This document shows, piece after piece, positions 1,601 through 25,400 of a stretch of DNA of 64,000 bases. Origin of the DNA: Camelus ferus (taxonomy: Eukaryota); the NCBI RefSeq assembly GCF_009834535.1, contig NC_045696.1:37326001-37390000 (forward strand), given 5' to 3'. The notes under the pieces were generated by a model that was given only the letters and a program-made list of their open reading frames with translations, did no database searches and was not told the origin of the DNA. The position numbers and the translations under genes were made by a program. Numbering within the stretch: the first letter of the stretch is position 1; each line of letters starts with the position of its first letter.

Positions 1601-1611
1601 AAAAGGATGTT
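1601..1611 (+). repeat. Left copy of putative target-site duplication AAAAGGATGTT
   Basis: Directly abuts the L1 5' terminus at 1612; identical 11-mer at 6865-6875. Confidence 0.7.
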
Positions 1612-3508
1612 GATTTTCTGGTCAAGATGGCAGAGTGATAGGACCATGAGCTTGCCTCTTCTCGCGACTGCAGCAAAACCATAACTGAATGCTAAACAAC
1701 CACTGAAAAATGACGGAACCTAGCAATAAAGACCTTCTGCAACTGGAAACATAGAGAGGGAACCACAGTAGGATGGTAGGAGGGGTGTGCTCACGATGTA
1801 ATTGGGCCCCATACTCCTCGTGTGGGCGACCCACAAGCTGAAGATCTGTTAAGTCGCAGAGGCCCTACCACAGGAGTGAGAGCTCTAAGCCACACATCAG
1901 GCTCCCCGGCTCGGGTCTCAGCACTGGGAAGAGAAGGAGACCCCAGGACATCTGGTTTTGAAGGCCAGTGGGGGCTTGGCTCAGGGAGCCTCATGGGACT
2001 GGGGGAAATGGAGACTCCATTCTCTTGGGAAGCGTACATGGAAACTCACATGCACAAGGTCCAAGGGCAGAGGCAGTGATTTCATAGGAACCTGGGCCAG
2101 GCCTGCCTGCTGGATTTGGTCGGGTCTCCTGGGGATGTGGGGGATGGCTGGGACCCACTCAGGGGACATTAAAGCTGGTGGTGGACATTCCAGTAGTGTT
2201 AATCTACATGAGCTTTCCTAGAGGCTGACATCTTGACTGGATCATTAGAATCAAGACCCAGCCCCACCCAACAGCCTGTAGGGAAGCCTCAGGCCAAACA
2301 ACATACAGGGTGGGAACACAGCCCCCCCCTCCATCAGCAGACTCCCTAAGTCACAAAGGCCTCCAGATACAGCCCTACCCACCAGAGGTTCAGGACCAAG
2401 CTTCACCCAGCAGTGGGCAGGCACTGGCTCCTTCTGCCAGGAAACCTGCATAAGCCTCTAGTCCAACCTCATCCATCAGGGACAGATACTCGAAATAAGA
2501 AAACAATAATCCCTAAGCCCGTAGAAGGAATCCACAAACACACAGAAAGATAGACAATATGAGGTGACAACGGAACATCTCCCAGGCCAAGGCACAAGAT
2601 AAAATCCCAGAAGAAATAGGTGATGAGGAGATAGGTAATTTATCTAAGAGTTTAAAGTAATGACAGCCAAGATTTTCAGAGAACTCAAGAGGAGTATAGA
2701 TGCAGAATGAAGTTTTTAGCAAAGAGTTGGAAAATATAAAGAATACCCAGAGTTGAAGAATAAAATCACCGAAATGAACAATGCACTAGAAGAAACCAAG
2801 AATAGACTAAATAAGGCAGAAGAACGGATCAGTGAGCTAGAAGACAGATTAATGGAAATCACTACCACAGAACAGAAAAAAGAAAAAAATAAAAAGGAAT
2901 GAGGATAGTTTCAGAGAACTCTGAGACAACATGAAGTGCTCTAATATTCACATTATACAGGTCCCAGAAAGAGAAGAGAGAGAGAAAGGACCTGAGAAAA
3001 TTTTTGGAGCGATAATAACAGAAAACTTCCCCAACTTGGGAAAGGAAACAGTTATCCAACTCCTGGAAGCGCAAAGTACCACACAGGATCAGCCCAAAGA
3101 GGAACGCACCAAGGCACATAGTCATCAAGTTGACAACAATTAAGGACAAGGAGAAAATATTAAAATTAGCAAGAGAAAAGCAACAAACAGCATACAAGGG
3201 AACTCCCATAAAGTTATCAGCTGATTTCTCAGCAGAAACTCTACAGGCCAGAAGGGAGTAGCATGATATATTTAAAGTGATGTAAGAGGGAAACTTACAA
3301 CCAAGAACACTGTCCAGCAAGGGTCTCATTCAGACTTGACAGAAAAATCAAAAGCTTCACAGATAAACAAAAGCTAAAAGATTTCAGCACCACCAAACCA
3401 GCTTTACAACAAATGTTAAAGGACCTTCTCTAGTCATCAAACCGTAAGAAAAGAGAGCAAAAAGAAAAAAGAGGAAAAAAAAAAAAAGAGAGAGAGAGAC
3501 CTACAAAA
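1612..3508 (+). mobile_element. L1 5'UTR + disabled ORF1 + inter-ORF spacer, broken just before ORF2
   Basis: Begins gattttctggtcaagatggcagag (L1 5' end with YY1 core caagatgg); GC-rich 5'UTR; ORF1 ATG at 2559 followed by TGA at codon 3; ORF1 peptides in ORF 2931-3143 (NIHIIQVPEREEREKGPEKIF...ENFPNLGKE); ORF1 stop TAG 3431-3433; A-rich spacer ending gacctacaaaa. Confidence 0.93.
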
Positions 3509-3790
3509 GATTGCTTTGGCTGTTTGGGGTCTTTTGGGTTCCTTATAAATTGTGGAATTGTTTGTTCTAGTTCTATGAGGAATGTTGCAAGTATTTTGAT
3601 GGAGGTTGCACTGGATCTGTGGATTGCTTTGGGTAATGTGGCCATTTTGATAGTGTTGACTTCCAATCCAAGAGCACAAGAAATCTTTCCATTTCTTTGT
3701 GTCATTTCGGTTTTCAGAGTATAGGTAACTTCCTTGGTTAAGTTTATTTCTAGGTATTTTGTTGTTTTTGATGTAATTGAAATGTCTTTG
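3509..3790 (-). mobile_element. Inverted L1 ORF2 fragment (region downstream of RT)
   Basis: Minus-strand peptides KYLEINLTKEV, CSWIG, IKMATLPKAIHR, FLIELEQTI match L1 ORF2 (KYLGINLTKEV...[22 protein letters not shown]). Confidence 0.9.
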
Positions 3791-3837
3791 CCAGTTATAA
3801 AATTTTGGTTTTTGAAGTGAAAAAAAAGTGAATGAAG

Positions 3838-4020
3838 GGCTGCAAAAGGCAAGATACCCTTTTTTATGGGTGAGTTATATTCCATTGCATATATGTGTGT
3901 GTGTGTGTGTGTACATCTCCATTATCTATTCAAATTAGATGTGCACTTAGGATGCTTCCATAGCTTGGCAATTATAAATAATGTTGCTGTTAATAGCAGG
4001 GTGTATGTATCCTTTTGAGT
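3838..4020 (-). mobile_element. Inverted L1 ORF2 C-terminal end fragment
   Basis: Minus strand MEYNSPIKKGILPFAA resembles ORF2 MEYYSAIKKNEILPFAA; includes (GT)n near 3894-3912. Confidence 0.85.
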
Positions 4021-4149
4021 TAATTCTTATTTTGTGGTTGGCTTTATTCCTTTGATAACTACGTAAGTTTAAAAAGCTAAATATCTAAATGTTCTTTGAA
4101 ACAATGAACAGTACCTATATGTAAATTAAGAGATATATGTGCAGCAAAA

Positions 4150-4485
4150 AAAAATCTATCTAGCCATGAAAGACATAGAAGAAAGTTAAAAGACATTACT
4201 AAATGAAAGAAGCCAATCTGAAAAGGCTACAAACTGTACGATTCCAACCAAATGACATTCTAGAAAAGGCACAGCTACAGAAACAATAAAAAAAATTGTG
4301 TTTTTCAGGAGTTTGGGGAGGTGGGGTGAGGAATGAGTAGATGGAGCACAAGGGATTTTTAGGACAATGAAATTATTCTGTATGATACTGTAGTGGCTAC
4401 ATGTCATTATGCATTTGTCAAAACCCATAGAATGTACAACATCAAGAGTAAACCCTAATGTAAACTATGAAAAAAAAAAAAAAAG
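4150..4485 (+). mobile_element. L1MC1-like 3'UTR fragment ending in an A-run
   Basis: gaagccaatctgaaaaggctac...ctgtatgatact...caaaacccatagaatgtacaac...aaaccctaatgtaaactatg, followed by A15. Confidence 0.8.
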
Positions 4486-4869
4486 AACTAATTCCTAAGT
4501 CAAACTAACGCTCAAGGGTTTGGAAGAAAAGTAGAAACTATCAGCGGAGTCACAGAAGGAAAGGCCAGTCAGTTCATAAAAAACAGAAACCAACAACAAA
4601 AACAATTATAAAAACGGTAGGATGTATTGAACTGGAATCTATATCATGGAAGCATTTCAAAGAGAGAGACTGACTATCAAATGAAGCTGGTAAGAAAAGT
4701 GTGGATTGAGAAATATTTTTTTCCTGTGATAGAACTGTTCTAAAACAGGATTGTGAGGGAAACAACTCTGCACATTTACACACAAACCAAAGAATTTTGT
4801 ATTTAAATGAGTGAATTTTATGGCATGTAAATTATATCTCAAGAAATCTCTTTCAAAATGAAGGAGTAT

Positions 4870-5340
4870 TTAGCACATATCCACACAATATAGCTGCTTC
4901 CAGGTATTTATCTCACAGGATAAATGAAAACAGGTATTTAGAAAAAAGATGCATATACACACACACACACACACACACACAAATATTTATTCGTAATAAC
5001 CCACACCTGAACTAACCCAAATGTCCATTATTAAGAGAATGAAGTAATATTTTGTGATATAATCTTACAAGGTCAAATTATTCAGCCCTACATACAGAAT
5101 GAATGGCATATTCAAATAAAAACATGTAGCTCTAAAACCATTGCTTAGAGCAAAATTGACAGACATCAAAGTATACATTGTTATTTTTTTCATTTTTATC
5201 AAGTTCAGCCACCATCAGATTGATGGATGCATGTCATGAGAGTATGTGTGACAGGGTATATATTATGTGAAATCATAAACTTTCCACTGACACATTTCAC
5301 TATATTTTTATTGTATACAGATATAAACACAAAAAGAAAG
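4870..5340 (+). mobile_element. Ancient L1ME-like 3' fragment with (CA)n
   Basis: Degenerate L1 3' motifs (aacccaaatgtccatt; ttttgtgatataatc); (CA)n at ~4957-4981. Confidence 0.5.
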
Positions 5341-5463
5341 AGGTAAGAAAAAATTACCATTAGACAATAATGGAGAAAATGACATTTGAGTTACAACCCT
5401 CTCCTCTGACAACCCACTCCCCTCCTCCCCACTGACACTGACCAGATAACCGACCAATCCAGG

Positions 5464-6198
5464 ATGTCAGCTGCTGGCTGGGTTCCAGGTGGAATGTTGG
5501 GGTGTCCCCTGGGGCTTCTTGTGGCTGGTGGCTCCACAGTAACTGGGCAGAGCCCTGTGGTGGATCAGTGCCATGAGGGACTGCTATCCTCTGTGGAGCC
5601 TGGCTTTGGGCTGATCCTTAAGAAGCTGAGTGTGGTCCTAGTTTTGCTGCTGCCCAATGGCCTGTGTTCTCAGTTCATGTTCCAGAGCCTCCACTGGGAT
5701 ACAGTGTTGAGTCCGCCTGTCCTCACCTTATTGCTGGGTGTTTTATTTACTTCCAGACTTATTCAGCCTGTTAGAAGTCGACTTAATGGAAGACATGAAA
5801 AGCAACTGGCAAAAACACTGGCTGCACAGATTGAGGAGGAATGCCACCTCATCAGCAAGCTTTGTGTGGCTAAAAAGGAGTGTGCCAAGATGGAGACAAC
5901 GTTAAAGAATGCCAGGCTAGAGAAGGAGCCAGTAAATATACCCAGCCTCGCTAACACTTACAGAAAGTTGACGACAGTCAGCCTGAGTCCGAGGAAGGAA
6001 ATCAATTTTCTCGTCCAGGAACTGAAGAAAGAGAGACCCCTGCAGTCTATACAAAGGAGGGCGGAGATGCTAAAAGTGCTCAAGTTCCTGGAAGAGGTCA
6101 TGAGAATCAGCACATCACAAGGGGCTTTTACAAACCAGCCAGGGGACCAAGCACCAAATCCTGATGGCCCCTTTCCCAGGAACAGACCCTCATCTTAA
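5464..6198 (+). CDS. cTAGE5/MIA2-like (cTAGE family) intronless retrogene or processed pseudogene, truncated: hydrophobic/TM segments + first coiled coil, 244 aa
   Basis: Longest ORF in the window. Colinear with the cTAGE5 N-terminus: VRSRLNGRHEKQLAKTLAAQIEE vs VRSRLYVGREKKLALMLSGLIEE; METTLKNARLEKE vs VESSLKDASFEKE; EINFLVQELKKER vs EILCLEKELKEEK; GLILKKL..LPNG vs GLLLEEL..LPEG. No introns. Family assignment is strong; coding status uncertain. Confidence 0.85.
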   Translation: MSAAGWVPGGMLGCPLGLLVAGGSTVTGQSPVVDQCHEGLLSSVEPGFGLILKKLSVVLVLLLPNGLCSQFMFQSLHWDTVLSPPVLTLLLGVLFTSRLIQPVRSRLNGRHEKQLAKTLAAQIEEECHLISKLCVAKKECAKMETTLKNARLEKEPVNIPSLANTYRKLTTVSLSPRKEINFLVQELKKERPLQSIQRRAEMLKVLKFLEEVMRISTSQGAFTNQPGDQAPNPDGPFPRNRPSS

Positions 6199-6868
6199 AA
6201 CTCTGCTGTTCCCTCCCCTCCACTCAGGCCTCCCAAGCTGCTGGGCTGCATTCACTCACTCAGTCAGATCTCCATCCACCTGAGCTGCACTGAGGCCAGT
6301 GGAGGGAGGGCAGTCACCTCCCTTGGACCAGAGTTCCTCCAACTTTACAAGTGAGCACAGCAGTGAACTCCTTCATGGAGTATACTGAAATCCCAGAACA
6401 CACTATGAAGCATGGGACTTTTTTTTTATATTCGGCAAATGTTTGGATTATCTCTTATTAGTTATGAAAGAAGTGTTGTAATTGAGACTGATGTACTTAG
6501 TTTGAATCTATATTAAGCCTCGTTTTTTAAGACAGTTTGGGTAAGTATTATATATCAGCAATGTAAGTAAAGTGTATATATAGTTATTCTGTGTACAAAT
6601 ATTGCATTATAATTTAAAATTGTATGCAATTTGTCTATATAAACTTCTAGATGGCCATAGCATTTATTTCTAGAGTTTAATTCTGAAGTCATAAGTTTAA
6701 GTCAAAGAACTTTTTTGCCTGAGTATGTATAGTTTAAAAAAAAATTACATGAATGTTTTTAAGATGAAGTTAAATTGTACTCTTATAAGAAATTTTTATC
6801 ATTTAATTTTTATATTCTGCTATAACAATATCCATAATAAAAAGCAAATTTGATAAATTTTTAAAAAA
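6199..6868 (+). other. 3'UTR of the cTAGE-like retrocopy with residual A-run
   Basis: C-rich stretch then AT-rich UTR; tttaattctgaagtc...aagaact resembles the MIA2/CTAGE5 3'UTR (from memory); A6 run at 6863-6868. Confidence 0.65.
6836..6841 (+). terminator. Polyadenylation signal AATAAA
   Basis: Canonical hexamer 21 nt upstream of the A-run and putative right TSD. Confidence 0.7.
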
Positions 6869-6875
6869 GGATGTT
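6865..6875 (+). repeat. Right copy of putative TSD AAAAGGATGTT
   Basis: Identical to 1601-1611; overlaps the end of the A-run. Confidence 0.7.
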
Positions 6876-12836: not shown

Positions 12837-14676
12837 GGGAGTGGGGCCAAGATGGTAAAATAGGAAGACCTTGAGCTTACCTCCTCCAATGGGCCCAGCA
12901 AAATTACAACTATTTAAGAGCAACTATCAATGAGAATAACCTGAAGACTAGTAGGAAAGATCTTCTGTAACTAAAGATATAAAGAAGAAACCAAAAGACA
13001 GGTAGGAGGGGAGTCAAGACTAATACCCCTGGGTAAGCAACCAACAAGTCAGAGGACAATTACAATTGTAGAGGTTTTCCCCAAAGAGTGAGGGATGCAA
13101 GCCCCACATCAGGCTCCTCAGTCTGGGGGTCCTGCATCAGGAAGATGAGTCCCCCAGCACATTTGGTTTTGAAAGCTAGCAGGGCATGTATCTGGGAGAG
13201 CCAGAGGGCTGTAGAAAAACTATTTTTAAGGGTGCACCCAAAAACTTGCACACTCTAAGATCCAGGGAAAAAGCAATAGGTTGAAAGGAGCCTGGGTCAG
13301 AACCAACCGAGATCAGACCCATTTGCTGATCTTTAAGAGCCTCCTGGAGAGGCAGGAGACAACTGGGGGACAAAGATACACACAGCAACAATTTTGGAGA
13401 ACTCATTCTACCATGAGGACAGTGGTGCAGGCTAGCCTCCTTTTAGAATTCTCCCTCCAGCTTATTAGCACTGGGACCTGGCTCCACCAGCAAGAAGCTA
13501 AGATAAGACCCCCTGAGCCTCCAGCTGCCTCAGCAAGAAGTCTTGATCACCAGAGGGTCCAAGACCTGGCACAACACACTAGTGAGCAGGCACCAGCTCT
13601 GAGAACACTGGGCCTCACAGCCAGAGATCCCAGGACCTGGCTCTGCCCACCAGTGGTCCAGTACTAGGCTCAGGACTCCACATCACCCACGAGTGGATGA
13701 CCACGAGCCCTGCAACCCTGTGGGCACTTGTCCTGTCCACCAGTGGGCCAAGACCAGCTCTGGGACACCAAGGACTCCACAGCCAGCCTTATCAGGATCT
13801 GGCCCTACCCAACAGCTGCAGGAAATACCCTAGGTGATGGCCCTGCCCACAAGCAGGCCAACATTAGTTCCAAGACCTTGGGCCCAAAGCCAGCTACCCT
13901 AGTGCCCAGCTTTATCCACCAGTGGGCTAGAACTAGCCCTGGGAAACCCAGGGGCTCCACAGCCAGCAAAGCTGTAACCCAGTCCTGCTAACCAGTGGGC
14001 AGGTACCAGGACTGGCACTTTCTGGGCCTTGCAGCCCGCTATGTCATAACCTAGCCCTGACCACCAGTGGCTGGAAGGATCCAAAATAGGCAGGACCTGG
14101 CAACCAACTGTACAAGTGCCAGCTATACCTACCAGCATACCTAGAGAAGTAACCTGCCACAACAGAAGGGTTCACACAGCCCACATAAAGGGCAGACCTA
14201 GAGCATATAGCTCTGATGACTAAAGGGGAATTTGTTGCTGGGCCCACAGAATACCTTCTACATGTGGTTACTTCTCTGATATAGGGAAATGCAATCAATC
14301 TACCAAATATGAATATATTTGAAGACATAACAGCTGAAAACTTCCATAACCTAGGAAAGAAAATAGGCATCCAGGTCCAGGAATCACAGAGAGTCCCAAA
14401 CAAGATGAATCCAAGGGGATCAGAACATGACACATTGTAATTAAAATTGCAAAAATTAAACATAGAGAATATTAAAACCAGGAAGGGAAACACAAGTTAA
14501 ATACAAAGAAATTCCTATAAGGATATCAATTGACTTTTCATCAGAAACTGTTCAGGCCAGGAGGGACTGGCATGATACGTATTTAAAGTGATGAAAGGAA
14601 AAAAAAAAACATCTACTATCAAGAATACTCTACCTGGCAAGGCTATCATTCAAATTTGAAGGAGAGACCAAGAGTT

Positions 14677-14727
<51 letters not shown>

Positions 14728-22430: not shown

Positions 22431-25400
22431 TAAAACACTTGAGGGAGTGGACAAGATGAAAGAGGAGAAAGATGTTGAGTTCACTTCTTCCTATTGGCAC
22501 AAATATTGAGAAAGACAAGAAGACTAATAGAAAAAAATTTTTTCTACAACTAAAGATATAAAGAAGGAACTACAATGATATGGGTAAGAGGGTCAGGTGA
22601 AAATGTGGTAAAATGAAGACCCGTATCCCCAGGCAGGTGACACACCAACAGCAGGACACTTACAACTCCACAGGTTCTTCCCAGGGAGTGAGGACCCTGA
22701 GCCCCACATCAGGCTTCCCAGCCTGAGCGTCCTCCCCTGCGAAGACGAGCCTCCAGAATATTTGATTTTGAAGGTCAGTGAGGCTTACTTTTGGGAAATC
22801 CAGAGGGCTATGAGAATTACAGACTCCTCTCTTAAATGGTGCACACAAAATCTCACACGTTTGGGGGACAAGTACCTGTTGATCTTGGACAGCCTCCCGG
22901 AGAGGCAGGAGGCAACTGCAGCTCACCCTGAGGACACTGACACTGGTGGCAGACAGTCTGGGGAGCTCATTCTACCACAAGGATGCTGGTCCTGGCAAGT
23001 GCCATTGTAGAATCCTCCTTCTAGCTTATCAGCACCAGGATGTGGCCCTGCACACCAGCACGTGAGCATTAGTACTGGGACATCTCAGGCCAAGCAACCA
23101 GCCTGGCAGAGAAAGAGCCCCACTCACAAGCAGGACTGCTGCCTTAAGACCACTAAGCACAAAGCCACCCCAAGACCTGGCCTGGTATACCAAAGGGATA
23201 AGGGTCAAGCCCCATACATCAGTGGGCCAGCACTCTCCTAGGAACCAGTATTACCCAAAAGTGGACAGGCACCAGGCTAGGACTCCCTGGGCCCTAACCC
23301 TACCCACCAGCCAATGACACATAGTTGAGGACCCCCAAGGTGCTGCAACCAGAAACCCTGGGACCTGGATCCACATACCAGTGGGCTGGCACAAGCCCCT
23401 GGACAAGACTTATCCACAAGTGGGCAACCAGTAGCCTTAGAACACCATGGGTCCCCACTCCACTCATCAGCAAGCCTTCACACCACCTGGGGGTGAGCCC
23501 CAAGGCCCACCAATGAGCCGACACTAGTTCTGGGATCCTGTGCCTCAGCCTCAGACAATAGCAATTCAAGACTAGGTCTAATGTGTTCTAGTAAACAAGT
23601 GGGCAACCACCAGCCCCAAGGTCCAATGGACACTACCCCCACCCACAAGCAGGTGGACAGTAGCCCCAGGATGACCACAGCCCTGCATCTTACTATGTTA
23701 GGACCCAGACCACTCACCAGCAGGCTGGAACCAACCCCAGCACTGCTTGGGGTCAAGCTCTGCAGGCCAGCACCAGCTCTGGAACACCTTGTATTCCCTG
23801 TTGGGGGATATGATCCCACAGACCAGCAGGCCAACACATGGCCCAGGACCCCCTAGATGACACAGCCAGCAGTGTCAAGAATCTATCCCATTGACCAACA
23901 GGCTGACACTAGATCCAGAAATCCCCACCCTGCAAGCACCCACCCCAGAACCTGGCTCAGTCCACCAGTGGGCCAGAACTAGCCCTGTGGCCCTTAAGGC
24001 TCTGTAGCCAGCCACTCTGTGAGCCAGTCCCACCCACCAACAGCCAGAAGCCTCTGCATGAGGCAGGGCAAGGTAGCCAGCTGGACTTGGGCCATCTACA
24101 TCTACCAGACCACCCACAGTAGCCAACACACCATAAAGAAAGATCCACAAAACCCACACAGAGGGAACCACTAGATGATCTCTCACCAGAGATGAATGAG
24201 CTACAGGGATGCACAGGACAACGCCTACAAAAGGCCACTTCTTCAAAGTAAGGAAATGTAACCAATTTACAAATACATAGAAATAAAAACAGCAAATAAG
24301 GCAAAATAGACGAATATGTTCCAAATGAATAAACAAGATAAAACCCCAGAAATGAAGTGGAGATAAGCAATCTACACGATAAAGTTCAAGGTAATAAAGA
24401 TGTTCAAAGAATATGGGAGAAGACTGGATGAACACAGTGAAAAGTTACTAGTTTTTAACAAAGAGTTAGTTAAATAAAGAAGAAGCAGAGATGAAGAATA
24501 CAATAACTGAAATAAAAAAAATACACTAGAAAGAATAAACATTAGATTAGATGATACAGAGAAACAGATTAGTCAGTAAGAAGTAGTAGAAATCACTGAA
24601 GCTGAACAGGAAAAATAAAAAGAAATGAGTACAGTTTAAGAGAACTCTGGGACAACATTAAGCGCATGTAACATTCACATTACAGGGGTCCCAGAAAGAG
24701 AAGAGAGAGAGGGCCAGAGAACATATTTGAAGACATACTAGCTGAAAAGTTTCCTGAACTGGAATGAAAACTGACATCTATGTCCAAGAAGTACAGAGTT
24801 CAAAATAAGATTGACACCAAAAGAATCAAACCACGACATAGTGTAAATAAATTGGGAAAAATTATAGATAAAGAGAGGATACTGAAAGCAACAAGGGAAA
24901 AGCAAAAAGTCATATCCAAGAGAACACCCCTAAGGCTATAAGCGGACTTTTCAGAAGAAACTCTACAGGGCAAAAGTGAGTGGCATGATATATTTAAAGT
25001 GATAAAAAGGAAAAACCTACAACCAGGAATACTTTATATGGCAAGGCTCTCATTCATATTTGATGGAGATATCAAAAGCTTTAGAGATAAGTAATAACTG
25101 AAAAAGTTCAGCAACACAAAAACCAACTTTAAAAGAAATGTTAAAGGGACTTCTCTAAGTGAAAAAGAAAAAGACACAAATATAAACATAAAAATTATAA
25201 AAGAAAAATCTCATTGGCTAAGGCAAATATACAGTAAAAGTAGTAAATCAAACAAATACAAAGATATTAGGAAGGTTAAAAGACAAAAGTATTAAAATCA
25301 TTTATAGTCACAATAAGTAGTCAAGGCATACACACACAGAAAAGGTAAAATATGGTGTAAAAAAACAATGAATGTGAAGGGAAAATAAAAATACGAGATT

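What the first reader, a model, noticed from the sequence alone, without database searches (positions are those of the whole stretch)
5464..6198. Highly diverged yet open cTAGE5-derived ORF retaining only TM + coiled coil 1
Seen: a 244-codon open frame, while neighbouring L1 ORFs are riddled with stops. Similarity to cTAGE5 is recognisable but low, and ends after the first coiled coil (...LEEVMRISTSQ vs LEDESKSLKSQ), followed by a short Pro-containing tail. Known: at ER exit sites cTAGE5 binds Sec12 via coiled coil 1, TANGO1 via coiled coil 2 and Sec23 via its proline-rich domain. Inference: heavy protein divergence without stops suggests descent from a long-lived, fast-evolving retrogene lineage. 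A product would be an ER-anchored fragment lacking TANGO1/Sec23-binding regions, possibly a modulator or decoy of COPII export.
Basis: partly seen in the sequence, partly recalled or inferred. Interest (0 to 1): 0.72.

Follow-up and report, generated by a model that had tools for sequence, protein, structure and literature searches.

The report
L1-carried cTAGE5 retrogene copy, decaying
The open frame is real and does derive from the ER-export gene cTAGE5/MIA2, but it is one of well over a hundred copies that a crippled LINE-1 element spread through this genome, and this particular copy appears to be drifting without selection.

Summary
Window 5464-6198 is a 244-codon ATG-to-TAA frame, the longest open frame in the window. 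It is homologous to residues 2-195 of the short MIA2 isoform (cTAGE5): 31% identity, BLASTP E=1e-18, hhalign probability 99.8%.

It is not a lone retrogene. It lies in a 5.25-kb retroposed unit (window ~1614-6868) flanked by an 11-bp target-site duplication. The unit consists of an L1 5'UTR plus ORF1, an inverted ORF2 scrap, an L1 3' end with an internal A16 tract, then 2.4 kb of non-L1 sequence holding the ORF, AATAAA and an A-tail. That is the layout of an L1 3' transduction by an ORF2-less, HAL1-like L1.

The genome holds at least 158 matches. I analysed 70 copies; 49 form a star-like burst.

Within the burst, dN equals the 3'UTR distance. Intact and broken copies have the same dN/dS (0.57). 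Fully intact copies number 11 of 49, against 8.0 expected under a Poisson model.

In the window copy the family's canonical start is out of frame; two compensating 1-bp indels keep the ORF open from an upstream ATG.

Short homologues in fox, deer and goat with the same start (and, in fox, the same stop) support an old, fast-evolving source lineage. A decoy function is untested.

The parts
1601..1611 (+). 5' copy of the target-site duplication (AAAAGGATGTT)
   Evidence: The same 11-mer sits at both junctions of the unit. Across the family, 11 of 29 copies with both flanks share an exact word of >=11 bp, against 2.6% of 2000 mismatched flank pairs.
1614..3432 (+). L1 5'UTR and ORF1 (ORF1 roughly 2495-3432), sense strand, broken in this copy
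   Evidence: Pfam Transposase_22 on 2925-3140 and 3019-3258, Tnp_22_dsRBD on 3281-3430. In paralogues, Tnp_22_trimer + Transposase_22 (L015, 264-aa piece) and Transposase_22 + Tnp_22_dsRBD (L013, 197-aa piece). Five copies including this one begin within 10 bp of this 5' end.
3433..3921 (-). Inverted fragment of L1 ORF2 (region just after the reverse transcriptase)
   Evidence: The minus-strand translation matches human LINE-1 ORF2 protein residues 758-856, E=1.5e-7. The plus frame gives nothing.
3950..4486 (+). 3' terminus of a young high-copy repeat (L1 3' end by recall), ending in an internal A16 tract (4471-4486)
   Evidence: 6683 and 3456 first-look candidates genome-wide. 13 of 40 scored hits match only up to window ~4469, at 93-98% identity. 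The A16 tract is read directly.
4487..5463 (+). Family-specific non-L1 leader (start of the transduced segment); this copy lacks ~100 bp at 5250-5266
   Evidence: An older C11 copy shares the unit only from window 4483 onward and has no L1 module in the 4.5 kb upstream. 27 of 40 scored hits span the L1/non-L1 junction. The deletion shows.
5464..6198 (+). The reported ORF: 36-codon non-canonical N-terminal extension + cTAGE5-type hydrophobic segments + partial coiled coil 1 + Pro-rich tail
   Evidence: Hydropathy (KD, 19-residue window) is 1.64 at residues 82-100, against 2.41 for the aligned MIA2 segment. The AF2 model is low-confidence (pLDDT 47) with helices at 85-152, 161-189 and 196-218.
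5558..5576 (+). Two compensating 1-bp indels (+T near 5558, -G just after the ATG at 5573-5575) that put the family's canonical start out of frame
   Evidence: In 19 paralogues displayed beside the window copy, the aligned sequence reads ATG GAG GGG CTG in most.
6199..6868 (+). 3'UTR of the unit, with AATAAA at 6836-6841 and an A-run at 6863-6868
   Evidence: Copies share this 3' end (6856-6875 in most). It is family-specific: 116 candidates, 42 matches. The first ~40 codons after the stop are weakly collinear with MIA2-short 516-555 (E 0.27-0.93).
6865..6875 (+). 3' copy of the target-site duplication

Best explanation
Window 5464-6198 is the coding remnant of a cTAGE5 (MIA2 short isoform)-derived retrogene. 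In this genome it was amplified as the 3'-transduced cargo of an ORF2-less L1.

Shown:
(1) The ORF is homologous to MIA2-short residues 2-195.
(2) It lies in a 5.25-kb unit built as L1 5'UTR + ORF1, an inverted ORF2 scrap, an L1 3' end with an internal A16 tract, 2.4 kb of non-L1 sequence containing the ORF, AATAAA, and an A-tail.
(3) Copies have different target-site duplications, a common 3' end and variable 5' ends, so they are independent LINE-type insertions.
(4) At least one older paralogue lacks the L1 module, and the older lineages branch below the burst in a midpoint-rooted tree.
(5) Burst copies, this one included, accumulate amino-acid changes at the same rate as their 3'UTRs.

Inferred:
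- An L1 landed about 1 kb upstream of one retrogene copy.
- Transcripts started at the L1 5'UTR promoter, ran through the weak L1 poly(A) site and ended at the retrogene's own signal.
- Autonomous L1s then copied this RNA in trans, perhaps helped by the cis-encoded ORF1 protein.
- Because the promoter travels with the copy, the unit could seed further rounds.

The window copy is a full-length insertion that has since drifted. Its open frame is a survivor by chance, not a maintained gene.
For: Homology:
- Profile search gives 250 hits at E<=1e-3. All 8 long hits (806-1915 aa) among the 10 representatives looked up are in clusters named MIA2 or cTAGE family member 5.
- BLASTP E=1e-18; hhalign probability 99.8%.

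Unit and mobility:
- Boundaries at 1614-1624 and 6868.
- 11-bp duplication in the window copy. Family-wide, 14 of 29 copies share a word of >=9 bp (control 10.2%) and 11 of 29 share >=11 bp (control 2.6%).
- AATAAA lies 21-27 nt before the end.
- L1 ORF1 domains; inverted ORF2 fragment.
- High-copy repeat terminus followed by A16 at 4470-4486.
- An older C11 copy starts at 4483 with no L1 module upstream. Tree.

Neutrality:
- Divergence from the column majority is ORF 8.7% vs 3'UTR 7.5% in intact copies, and 9.6% vs 8.1% in broken copies.
- The window copy has N=21, S=9, against a neutral N/S of 2.48.
- NG86 dN/dS is 0.57 for 78 intact/open pairs and 0.57 for 595 broken pairs; dN is 0.10-0.12 vs UTR distance 0.10.
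- Disabling events average 1.82 per copy; the zero class is 11 of 49 vs 8.0 expected under Poisson.
- The canonical start is out of frame in the window copy.
- Its membrane-anchor segment is weakened: hydropathy 1.64 vs 2.13-2.52 in two of the three other family members scanned (the third scores 1.58).
Against: - There are fewer frame-breaking lesions than a simple neutral model predicts. Nonsense codons are 36 of 2997 single-difference codons (1.2%) vs 3.3% expected at kappa=3.
- Frameshifting indels number 50 in the ORF (about 1.6/kb) vs 33 (about 3.3/kb) in the composition-matched post-stop segment. Indels of 3n length are 23 of 73 in the ORF vs 46 of 277 in non-coding sequence (Fisher p=0.0076). 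Shared events are counted more than once.
- Private substitutions in intact copies are half as dense in the ORF as in their 3'UTR (0.0051 vs 0.0099), though this measure saturates.
- The two indels in the window copy compensate each other within 18 nt. That is what selection for an open frame would also produce.
- RNA-seq contigs of four runs from one reproductive-tract study hold 41-56% of the sampled 31-mers of window 4483-6868.
- The sample of copies was ranked by protein similarity, which favours well-preserved copies.
- The source locus was not identified. Absence of the L1 module was checked in depth for only one older copy.
Confidence: 0.75

Rival explanations
1. The family as a whole, through its source copies and possibly some dispersed ones, encodes a working small ER-anchored coiled-coil protein kept open by selection while its sequence evolves fast, as many germline-expressed gene families do. 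The window copy is then a recently relaxed or marginal member. This is compatible with the best explanation for this particular copy.
For: - The same start in fox, reindeer, goat, deer and this genome, and the same stop in fox, despite only 52-66% identity.
- The majority ORF of the 70 copies is uninterrupted and 210 codons long, although the lineage has diverged to 31% identity from MIA2.
- Deficit of nonsense and frameshift lesions and excess of 3n indels.
- Reproductive-tract RNA runs hold about half the words of the window stretch.
Against: - dN equals the UTR rate, and dN/dS is identical in intact and broken copies.
- The number of intact copies fits Poisson.
- In long transcripts the ORF follows a 3.85-kb leader containing ORF1 and many ATGs (read from the sequence).
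- No protein-level evidence was available.
Confidence: 0.35
2. One reading: the window ORF itself makes an ER-anchored fragment that binds Sec12 through coiled coil 1 and acts as a decoy or modulator of COPII export.
For: - The frame is open, with A at -3 of the 5464 ATG.
- The region aligned to MIA2 includes the juxtamembrane block that is best conserved in both families.
- cTAGE5 coil1 binds Sec12 directly (PMC4164946, passages read).
Against: - The canonical start is out of frame, and six codons are frame-shifted.
- The substitution pattern is neutral: N=21, S=9.
- The anchor hydropathy is borderline at 1.64.
- The ORF covers only residues up to 195 of the 61-300 Sec12-binding construct.
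- At least 16 other open paralogues would make the same or a better product.
Confidence: 0.07
3. The copies arose by segmental (DNA-level) duplication of a locus that happened to contain an L1 next to a cTAGE-like pseudogene, not by retroposition.
For: - Some older copies are clustered on one contig (C11 at 67.3-67.7 and 72.8 Mb), and three of them share one boundary at window 4483.
- A related but distinct family forms tandem arrays.
Against: - Burst copies are scattered over more than 20 contigs.
- They end at one 3' position after AATAAA with A-tails, have variable 5' ends, and carry unrelated target-site duplications far above the control rate.
Confidence: 0.03

Closest known systems
MIA2 short isoform / cTAGE5 (ER-exit-site protein; PMC3128532 and PMC4164946, passages read)
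   Same: Homologous over residues 2-195: N-terminal hydrophobic segments, membrane anchor, juxtamembrane block and the first part of coiled coil 1. The same start codon position is used in the family.
   Different: Intronless and dispersed, whereas the multi-exon parent lies on C6 at ~43.91-43.96 Mb. It lacks residues ~196-515 (the rest of coil1 and coil2, the TANGO1-binding part) and the proline-rich domain 651-804 (the Sec23/24-binding part). Identity is only 31%.
Short 'cTAGE family member 9'-type predicted proteins of other Laurasiatheria (e.g. Vulpes lagopus 210 aa; Rangifer, Capra and Cervus hypothetical proteins)
   Same: Same truncated architecture and the same start (and, in the fox protein, the same stop), at 52-66% identity. 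These are members of the same family.
   Different: I could not examine their genomic context, copy number or linkage to L1. Their names are automatic annotations, not tested functions.
L1 3' transduction (definition in PMC9311842, passages read; Moran 1999 and Goodier 2000 cited there, not read)
   Same: L1 at the 5' side, an internal A-tract at the L1 end, downstream non-L1 sequence ending at another poly(A) signal 10-40 nt before the end, and the whole flanked by one target-site duplication.
   Different: The L1 has no endonuclease or reverse transcriptase, so every round needs help in trans. The 2.4-kb cargo is itself an old retrogene with an ORF. The transduction family is large: 49 burst copies in my sample and 116 first-look candidates for the 3'UTR.
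HAL1 ('half-L1'), non-autonomous L1 derivatives that encode only ORF1p and arose several times in mammals (PMC5753468, passages read; Bao & Jurka 2010 not held)
   Same: 5'UTR plus a domain-complete ORF1, no functional ORF2, a non-L1 3' part, and LINE-type insertions.
   Different: ORF1 is broken in 6 of 6 copies examined. The 3' part carries a host-derived ORF. I did not compare it with HAL1 reference sequences, as none was available.
Primate cTAGE retrogene family (CTAGE1/4/6/8/9/15; recalled, no paper read on this)
   Same: Repeated retroposition of cTAGE5 mRNA giving intronless paralogues.
   Different: As I recall, the primate copies keep most of the protein. This family is cut down to about 210 residues and rode on an L1. 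The literature searches found no description of a camelid or laurasiatherian counterpart.

Membership tests
MIA2/cTAGE5 (MIA/cTAGE family) | Sequence homology to the cTAGE5-type N-terminal region | tested here: met
   BLASTP E=1e-18, 31% identity over 195 columns. hhalign probability 99.8%, E=1.5e-28. The profile search recovers proteins named MIA2 or cTAGE5.
MIA2/cTAGE5 (MIA/cTAGE family) | Single membrane anchor before the coiled coils | tested here: inconclusive
   The aligned segment (residues 82-100) scores KD 1.64, at the usual threshold, against 2.41 in MIA2 and 2.13-2.52 in two of the three family members scanned. It is helical in a low-confidence AF2 model. No dedicated TM predictor was available.
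MIA2/cTAGE5 (MIA/cTAGE family) | Complete first coiled coil (construct 61-300, which binds Sec12; PMC4164946) | tested here: not met
   The alignment ends at MIA2-short residue 195.
MIA2/cTAGE5 (MIA/cTAGE family) | Second coiled coil (binds TANGO1; PMC3128532) | tested here: not met
   No similarity to residues 196-515 in the ORF or anywhere in the unit.
MIA2/cTAGE5 (MIA/cTAGE family) | C-terminal proline-rich domain (651-804; binds Sec23/24; PMC3128532) | tested here: not met
   There is only a 25-residue tail with 6 prolines. The tail is weakly collinear with residues 516-555, E 0.27-0.93, and is not recovered by hhalign.
LINE-mediated retroposed copy | Intronless; poly(A) signal and A-tail at a fixed 3' end; variable 5' truncation; target-site duplication | tested here: met
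   Word of >=11 bp shared in 11 of 29 copies vs 2.6% of control pairs.
L1 3' transduction | L1 upstream, internal A-tract at the L1 3' end, then flanking DNA ending at a second poly(A) site, all inside one pair of duplications | tested here: met
   The 'empty site' state is seen in an older paralogue that starts at 4483. The source locus itself was not found.
HAL1-type ORF1-only L1 derivative | Encodes ORF1p and no ORF2p | tested here: inconclusive
   All three ORF1 domains are present and ORF2 is reduced to an inverted ~100-residue scrap, but ORF1 is interrupted in 6 of 6 copies. The open pieces of L015 (264 aa) and L013 (197 aa) overlap and together span it, so the lesions look private.

The most novel reading that the evidence does not exclude
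An ORF1-only (HAL1-like) L1 captured a host ER-exit-site gene fragment by 3' transduction and became a two-ORF, self-promoting retroelement family. The captured cTAGE5-type ORF has been kept open over tens of millions of years because its product matters, either to the host germline (a small Sec12-binding modulator of COPII export) or to the element's own spread. That would be a mammalian case of a mobile element carrying and amplifying a host-derived coding gene.
Probability: 0.15. Interest if true: 0.75.

Novelty: new variant of a known kind. Interest (0 to 1): 0.45.

Why it matters
It turns an apparently unique 'surviving ORF' into a measurable family history. One gene, cTAGE5, has repeatedly given rise to intronless offspring in this lineage, and one of those offspring was multiplied by hitching to a crippled L1.

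Large transduction families built on an L1 that lacks its own enzymes are uncommon. This one offers a natural data set for several questions:
- How efficiently are such RNAs copied in trans?
- Does cis-encoded ORF1 protein help?
- How long do passenger ORFs stay open by chance?

For annotation, it warns that the many 'cTAGE family member'-like and 'uncharacterized LOC' models in camelid and other laurasiatherian genomes are mostly copies of a repeat.

If the residual 'keep-it-open' signal is real, the family would be a candidate germline modulator of ER export.

Tried and rejected
- Direct Pfam and PDB searches of the ORF found nothing. The word-indexed search for longer relatives found one weak hit. 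Homology only emerged with a profile.
- Counting mutations private to a single copy saturates with 70 copies, so I used it only for relative comparison.
- My first frame census was off by one base because of the window copy's indels. It was corrected.
- The tandem-array period on C36 (~5274 bp) resembles the 5.25-kb unit length, but this is a coincidence. The array unit shares only window 5078-6233 at 66-71% identity.
- I briefly read the plus frame of 3434-3721 as L1 ORF2. The PDB search rejected that and supported the minus strand. The plus frame of 3836-4015 gave no hit, so the sense orientation of 3950-4470 rests only on the shared A-tailed terminus.
- No other L1 in the window retains a segment matching 3440-4470.
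- The AF2 model is too poor (pLDDT 47, pTM 0.21) for a fold search, so none was run.
- Laying RNA reads was not possible (one search returned no result), so expression, strand and transcript ends remain open.
- The scan's earlier notes held nothing relevant.
- The C13 526-aa retrogene is not the ancestor of this family; best E to the window ORF is 1.6.
- Literature searches for a description of this family or mechanism in camelids or Laurasiatheria found none. Bao & Jurka 2010 on HAL1 is not held.
Full report
THE OBSERVATION. Window 5464-6198 (+) is an ATG-to-TAA frame of 244 codons, or 262 codons stop-to-stop from 5410. It is the longest stop-free frame in the 64-kb window; only five frames reach 150 aa and the next longest is 189 aa. 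Direct searches are blank: no Pfam family at E<=10 and no PDB chain better than E=0.15.

RELATIVES. A word-indexed search found 19 near-length relatives at E<=0.01 among 1071 candidates. They include an uncharacterized Camelus dromedarius protein, 'cTAGE family member 9 [Vulpes lagopus]' (210 aa), and hypothetical proteins of Rangifer, Capra and Cervus. Only one weak longer protein turned up. In the alignment the relatives share a start (MEGL...). The fox and camelid forms also share the stop, seven residues after a conserved 'PF'.

IS IT cTAGE5-DERIVED? Yes.
- A profile of 12 family members, searched against 1.84 billion representatives, gave 250 hits at E<=1e-3 (149 at <=1e-10, 26 at <=1e-30).
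- I looked up ten representatives. All eight long ones (806-1915 aa) fall in clusters named melanoma inhibitory activity protein 2 or cTAGE family member 5 (one of those representatives is itself labelled an uncharacterized protein). One other is a Camelus ferus hypothetical protein.
- BLASTP of the window ORF against the 806-aa MIA2 isoform X4 of Nyctereutes aligns residues 38-221 with 2-195: 61 of 195 identical, E=1e-18.
- hhalign of the family alignment against 12 named short isoforms gives probability 99.8%, E=1.5e-28, for residues 59-221 vs 22-195.
- The Pro-rich tail and the ~25 codons after the stop are weakly collinear with MIA2-short 516-555 in three copies (E 0.27-0.93). hhalign does not recover this. 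An internal deletion of ~320 codons is therefore a plausible but unproven origin of the tail.
- By the constructs of Saito et al. (PMC4164946 and PMC3128532, passages read), coil1 is 61-300 and binds Sec12, coil2 is 301-650 and contains the TANGO1-binding part, and the PRD is 651-804 and binds Sec23/24. The ORF therefore keeps only about 56% of coil1 and none of the rest.
- The putative anchor is borderline in this copy: KD 1.64 against 2.41 in MIA2 and 2.13-2.52 in two of the three other family members scanned. The AF2 model is low-confidence (pLDDT 47) and mainly shows long helices with a disordered tail.

IT IS NOT ALONE. The window's own assembly (2.09 Gb) holds at least 158 matches to the ORF (673 first-look candidates, 150 scored). 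They are spread over many contigs at 60-81% protein identity, and many have no stop. Homology between copies extends far beyond the ORF. In eight copies with long flanks it runs from a variable 5' end (window 1614-1624 in four; 2568, 2933, 4645 and 5406 in the others) to a fixed 3' end at about 6868, at 84-89% nucleotide identity throughout.

ANATOMY OF THE 5.25-KB UNIT.
- 1614-3432 is L1 5'UTR plus ORF1. Pfam Transposase_22 and Tnp_22_dsRBD match in the window. Tnp_22_trimer + Transposase_22 match in L015, and Transposase_22 + Tnp_22_dsRBD in L013.
- ORF1 is interrupted in 6 of 6 copies examined. The open pieces of L015 (264 aa) and L013 (197 aa) overlap and together span it, so the lesions look private.
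- 3433-3921 on the minus strand matches human L1 ORF2p residues 758-856 (E=1.5e-7). This is an inverted scrap; plus-strand frames give nothing.
- 3950-4470 is the terminus of a young high-copy repeat (6683 and 3456 first-look candidates). Of 40 scored hits, 13 match only up to window ~4469 at 93-98% identity. An A16 tract at 4471-4486 follows directly.
- From ~4487 the sequence is family-specific (27 of 40 scored hits span the junction) and contains the ORF.
- After the ORF come a 3'UTR specific to the family (116 candidates, 42 matches), AATAAA at 6836-6841, and an A-run at 6863-6868.

MOBILITY.
- The window copy is flanked by the 11-mer AAAAGGATGTT at 1601-1611 and 6865-6875.
- Among 29 copies for which I held both flanks, 14 share an exact word of >=9 bp between the two junctions (10.2% of 2000 mismatched flank pairs do). 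12 share >=10 bp (4.5%) and 11 share >=11 bp (2.6%). The words are unrelated between copies and reach 19-21 bp.
- These are therefore independent LINE-type insertions.
- An L1 head, an internal A-tract, downstream non-L1 DNA ending at a second poly(A) signal, all inside one duplication: this is the signature of L1 3' transduction as defined in PMC9311842 (passages read).
- Because the L1 lacks endonuclease and reverse transcriptase, copying must have been in trans. With its ORF1-only design it resembles HAL1, 'a non-autonomous derivative of L1 [that] encodes only ORF1p' and arose several times in mammals (PMC5753468, passages read).

ORDER OF EVENTS.
- In a FastTree of 67 copies (3 partial ones left out), 49 copies including the window form a star-like burst. 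Mean terminal branch length over the whole tree is 0.05.
- Older lineages branch below the burst, and many lie on C11 at 45.9, 67.3-67.7 and 72.8 Mb (midpoint root).
- One older intact copy shares the unit only from window 4483, just after the A-tract, with no L1 module in the 4.5 kb upstream. Two other C11 copies share that boundary.
- I infer that an L1 inserted upstream of one such copy and that L1-promoted read-through transcripts seeded the burst. The source locus was not identified.

A SECOND CLASS OF 5' ENDS. Of 68 copies mapped against a copy that keeps the ~100 bp missing in the window, 5 reach the L1 5' terminus (counting the reference copy and the window). Three end inside the L1 module and about 20 run off my fetched flank. 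The remaining 36 end 26-683 bp upstream of the ORF, at scattered positions. Twelve of those 36 are old, diverged copies where BLAST extension may stop early. Several of the short copies have long target-site duplications. I could not decide whether this zone reflects ordinary 5' truncation seen through a sample chosen for having the ORF, or a second, broad transcription start inside the unit.

IS THE ORF MAINTAINED? I aligned 70 copies over window 4470-6868.

Openness:
- Of 67 copies covering the whole ORF, 13 are intact from the canonical ATG to the shared stop.
- Four more (the window, L011, L019, L022) are open only from the upstream ATG. One further copy is open with an altered C-terminus.
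- In the window copy, a +T near 5558 and a -G just after the ATG at 5573-5575 compensate each other. They put the canonical start out of frame and shift six codons.

Evidence for neutrality:
- Divergence from the column majority is no lower in the ORF than in the 3'UTR: 8.7% vs 7.5% in intact copies, 9.6% vs 8.1% in broken ones.
- The window copy has 21 nonsynonymous and 9 synonymous single-step differences, against a neutral ratio of 2.48.
- NG86 dN/dS is 0.57 for 78 pairs of open burst copies and 0.57 for 595 pairs of broken ones. dN (0.10-0.12) equals the 3'UTR distance (0.10).
- Disabling events average 1.82 per burst copy (variance 2.27). 11 of 49 copies have none, against 8.0 expected under Poisson.

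Evidence against strict neutrality:
- Nonsense codons are 36 of 2997 single-difference codons (1.2%) vs 3.3% expected at kappa=3.
- Indel density is 2.39/kb in the ORF vs 3.87/kb in the GC-matched post-stop segment and 6.3-8.4/kb in the other non-coding parts.
- 3n indels are 23 of 73 in the ORF vs 46 of 277 in non-coding sequence (Fisher p=0.0076). Shared events are counted repeatedly.
- Private substitutions in intact copies are half as dense in the ORF as in their UTR (a saturating measure).

My reading: part of each copy's divergence was inherited from source copies whose frame was open, and decay since insertion has been neutral. The uninterrupted majority ORF, the shared start across orders and the shared stop in fox argue that the source lineage was kept open for a long time.

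EXPRESSION. RNA-seq contigs of four runs from one study labelled as reproductive-system samples hold 41-56% of the sampled 31-mers of window 4483-6868. Runs of other studies hold less. I could not lay them, so this shows only that near-identical sequence occurs in RNA-derived assemblies.

CONTEXT.
- The multi-exon parent MIA2 lies on C6 at ~43.91-43.96 Mb.
- cTAGE5 has produced other intronless lineages here. One is a fully open 526-aa frame on C13, collinear with MIA2-short 7-506 (28% identity, E=3e-36). It is not specially related to the window ORF. Similar open frames of 549-582 aa cluster on C1 at 6.04-6.61 Mb.
- A third group forms tandem arrays with a ~5.27-kb period on C36 and several small contigs, at ~40-44% protein identity and with in-frame TGA codons.

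VERDICT. The ORF is real and cTAGE5-derived. For this locus the best-supported account is a neutrally drifting, full-length copy of an L1-transduced retrogene family. The interesting object is the family and its mode of spread, a new variant of known mechanisms (3' transduction, HAL1-like trans-mobilisation, retrogene bursts). I found no description of it in the literature searches.

Noticed in passing
G000 C36 ~18.5-19.8 Mb; also C275, C578, C1251, C126, C61, C22, C8 (locus L079 = C36:19227000-19232600): Tandem arrays with a ~5274-bp period. Each unit carries a cTAGE-like frame at ~40-44% identity to the window ORF, usually with two in-frame TGA codons. The unit shares only window 5078-6233 at 66-71% nt identity. 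This is a macrosatellite-like older paralogue family.
   Followed up: partly
L081 = G000 C13:48368100-48370700 (ORF 421-1998 +); similar hits on C1 at 6.04-6.61 Mb (four with open frames of 549-582 aa), plus hits at C1:6.75 Mb, C1:17.47 Mb, C34:1.59 Mb and C19:6.91 Mb: An intronless, fully open 526-aa cTAGE5-type retrogene, collinear with MIA2-short residues 7-506 (TM + both coiled coils, no proline-rich domain), plus a cluster of similar open frames. This is a second, longer cTAGE5-derived lineage in the same genome.
   Followed up: partly
Family-wide; window equivalent ~4780-5440: 36 of 68 copies have their 5' end in a zone 26-683 bp upstream of the ORF, and few appear to be truncated inside the ORF. 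It may be a second, broad transcription start inside the unit, or a sampling effect.
   Followed up: partly
window 5250-5266: The window copy lacks about 100 bp that the other copies retain just upstream of the ORF.
   Followed up: no
window 13086-14678 and 22685-25157 (+): Two other, older L1 copies (5'UTR/ORF1 region at 70-72% identity to the unit's L1 module). Neither retains a segment matching window 3440-4470.
   Followed up: no
Proteins P0017 (Cervus, 354 aa) and P0030 (Callospermophilus, 1606 aa): P0017 is a gene model that fuses the family ORF to an EF-1-gamma C-terminal domain (PF00647), probably an annotation artefact. P0030 is a squirrel 'low quality' protein that matches the family profile far better (E=3e-52, three stretches) than true MIA2 orthologues do, which hints at similar expansions outside Laurasiatheria.
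   Followed up: no
G000 C6:43911423-43962441 (+): The multi-exon parental MIA2 locus; exons are 67-95% identical to the raccoon-dog short isoform.
   Followed up: no
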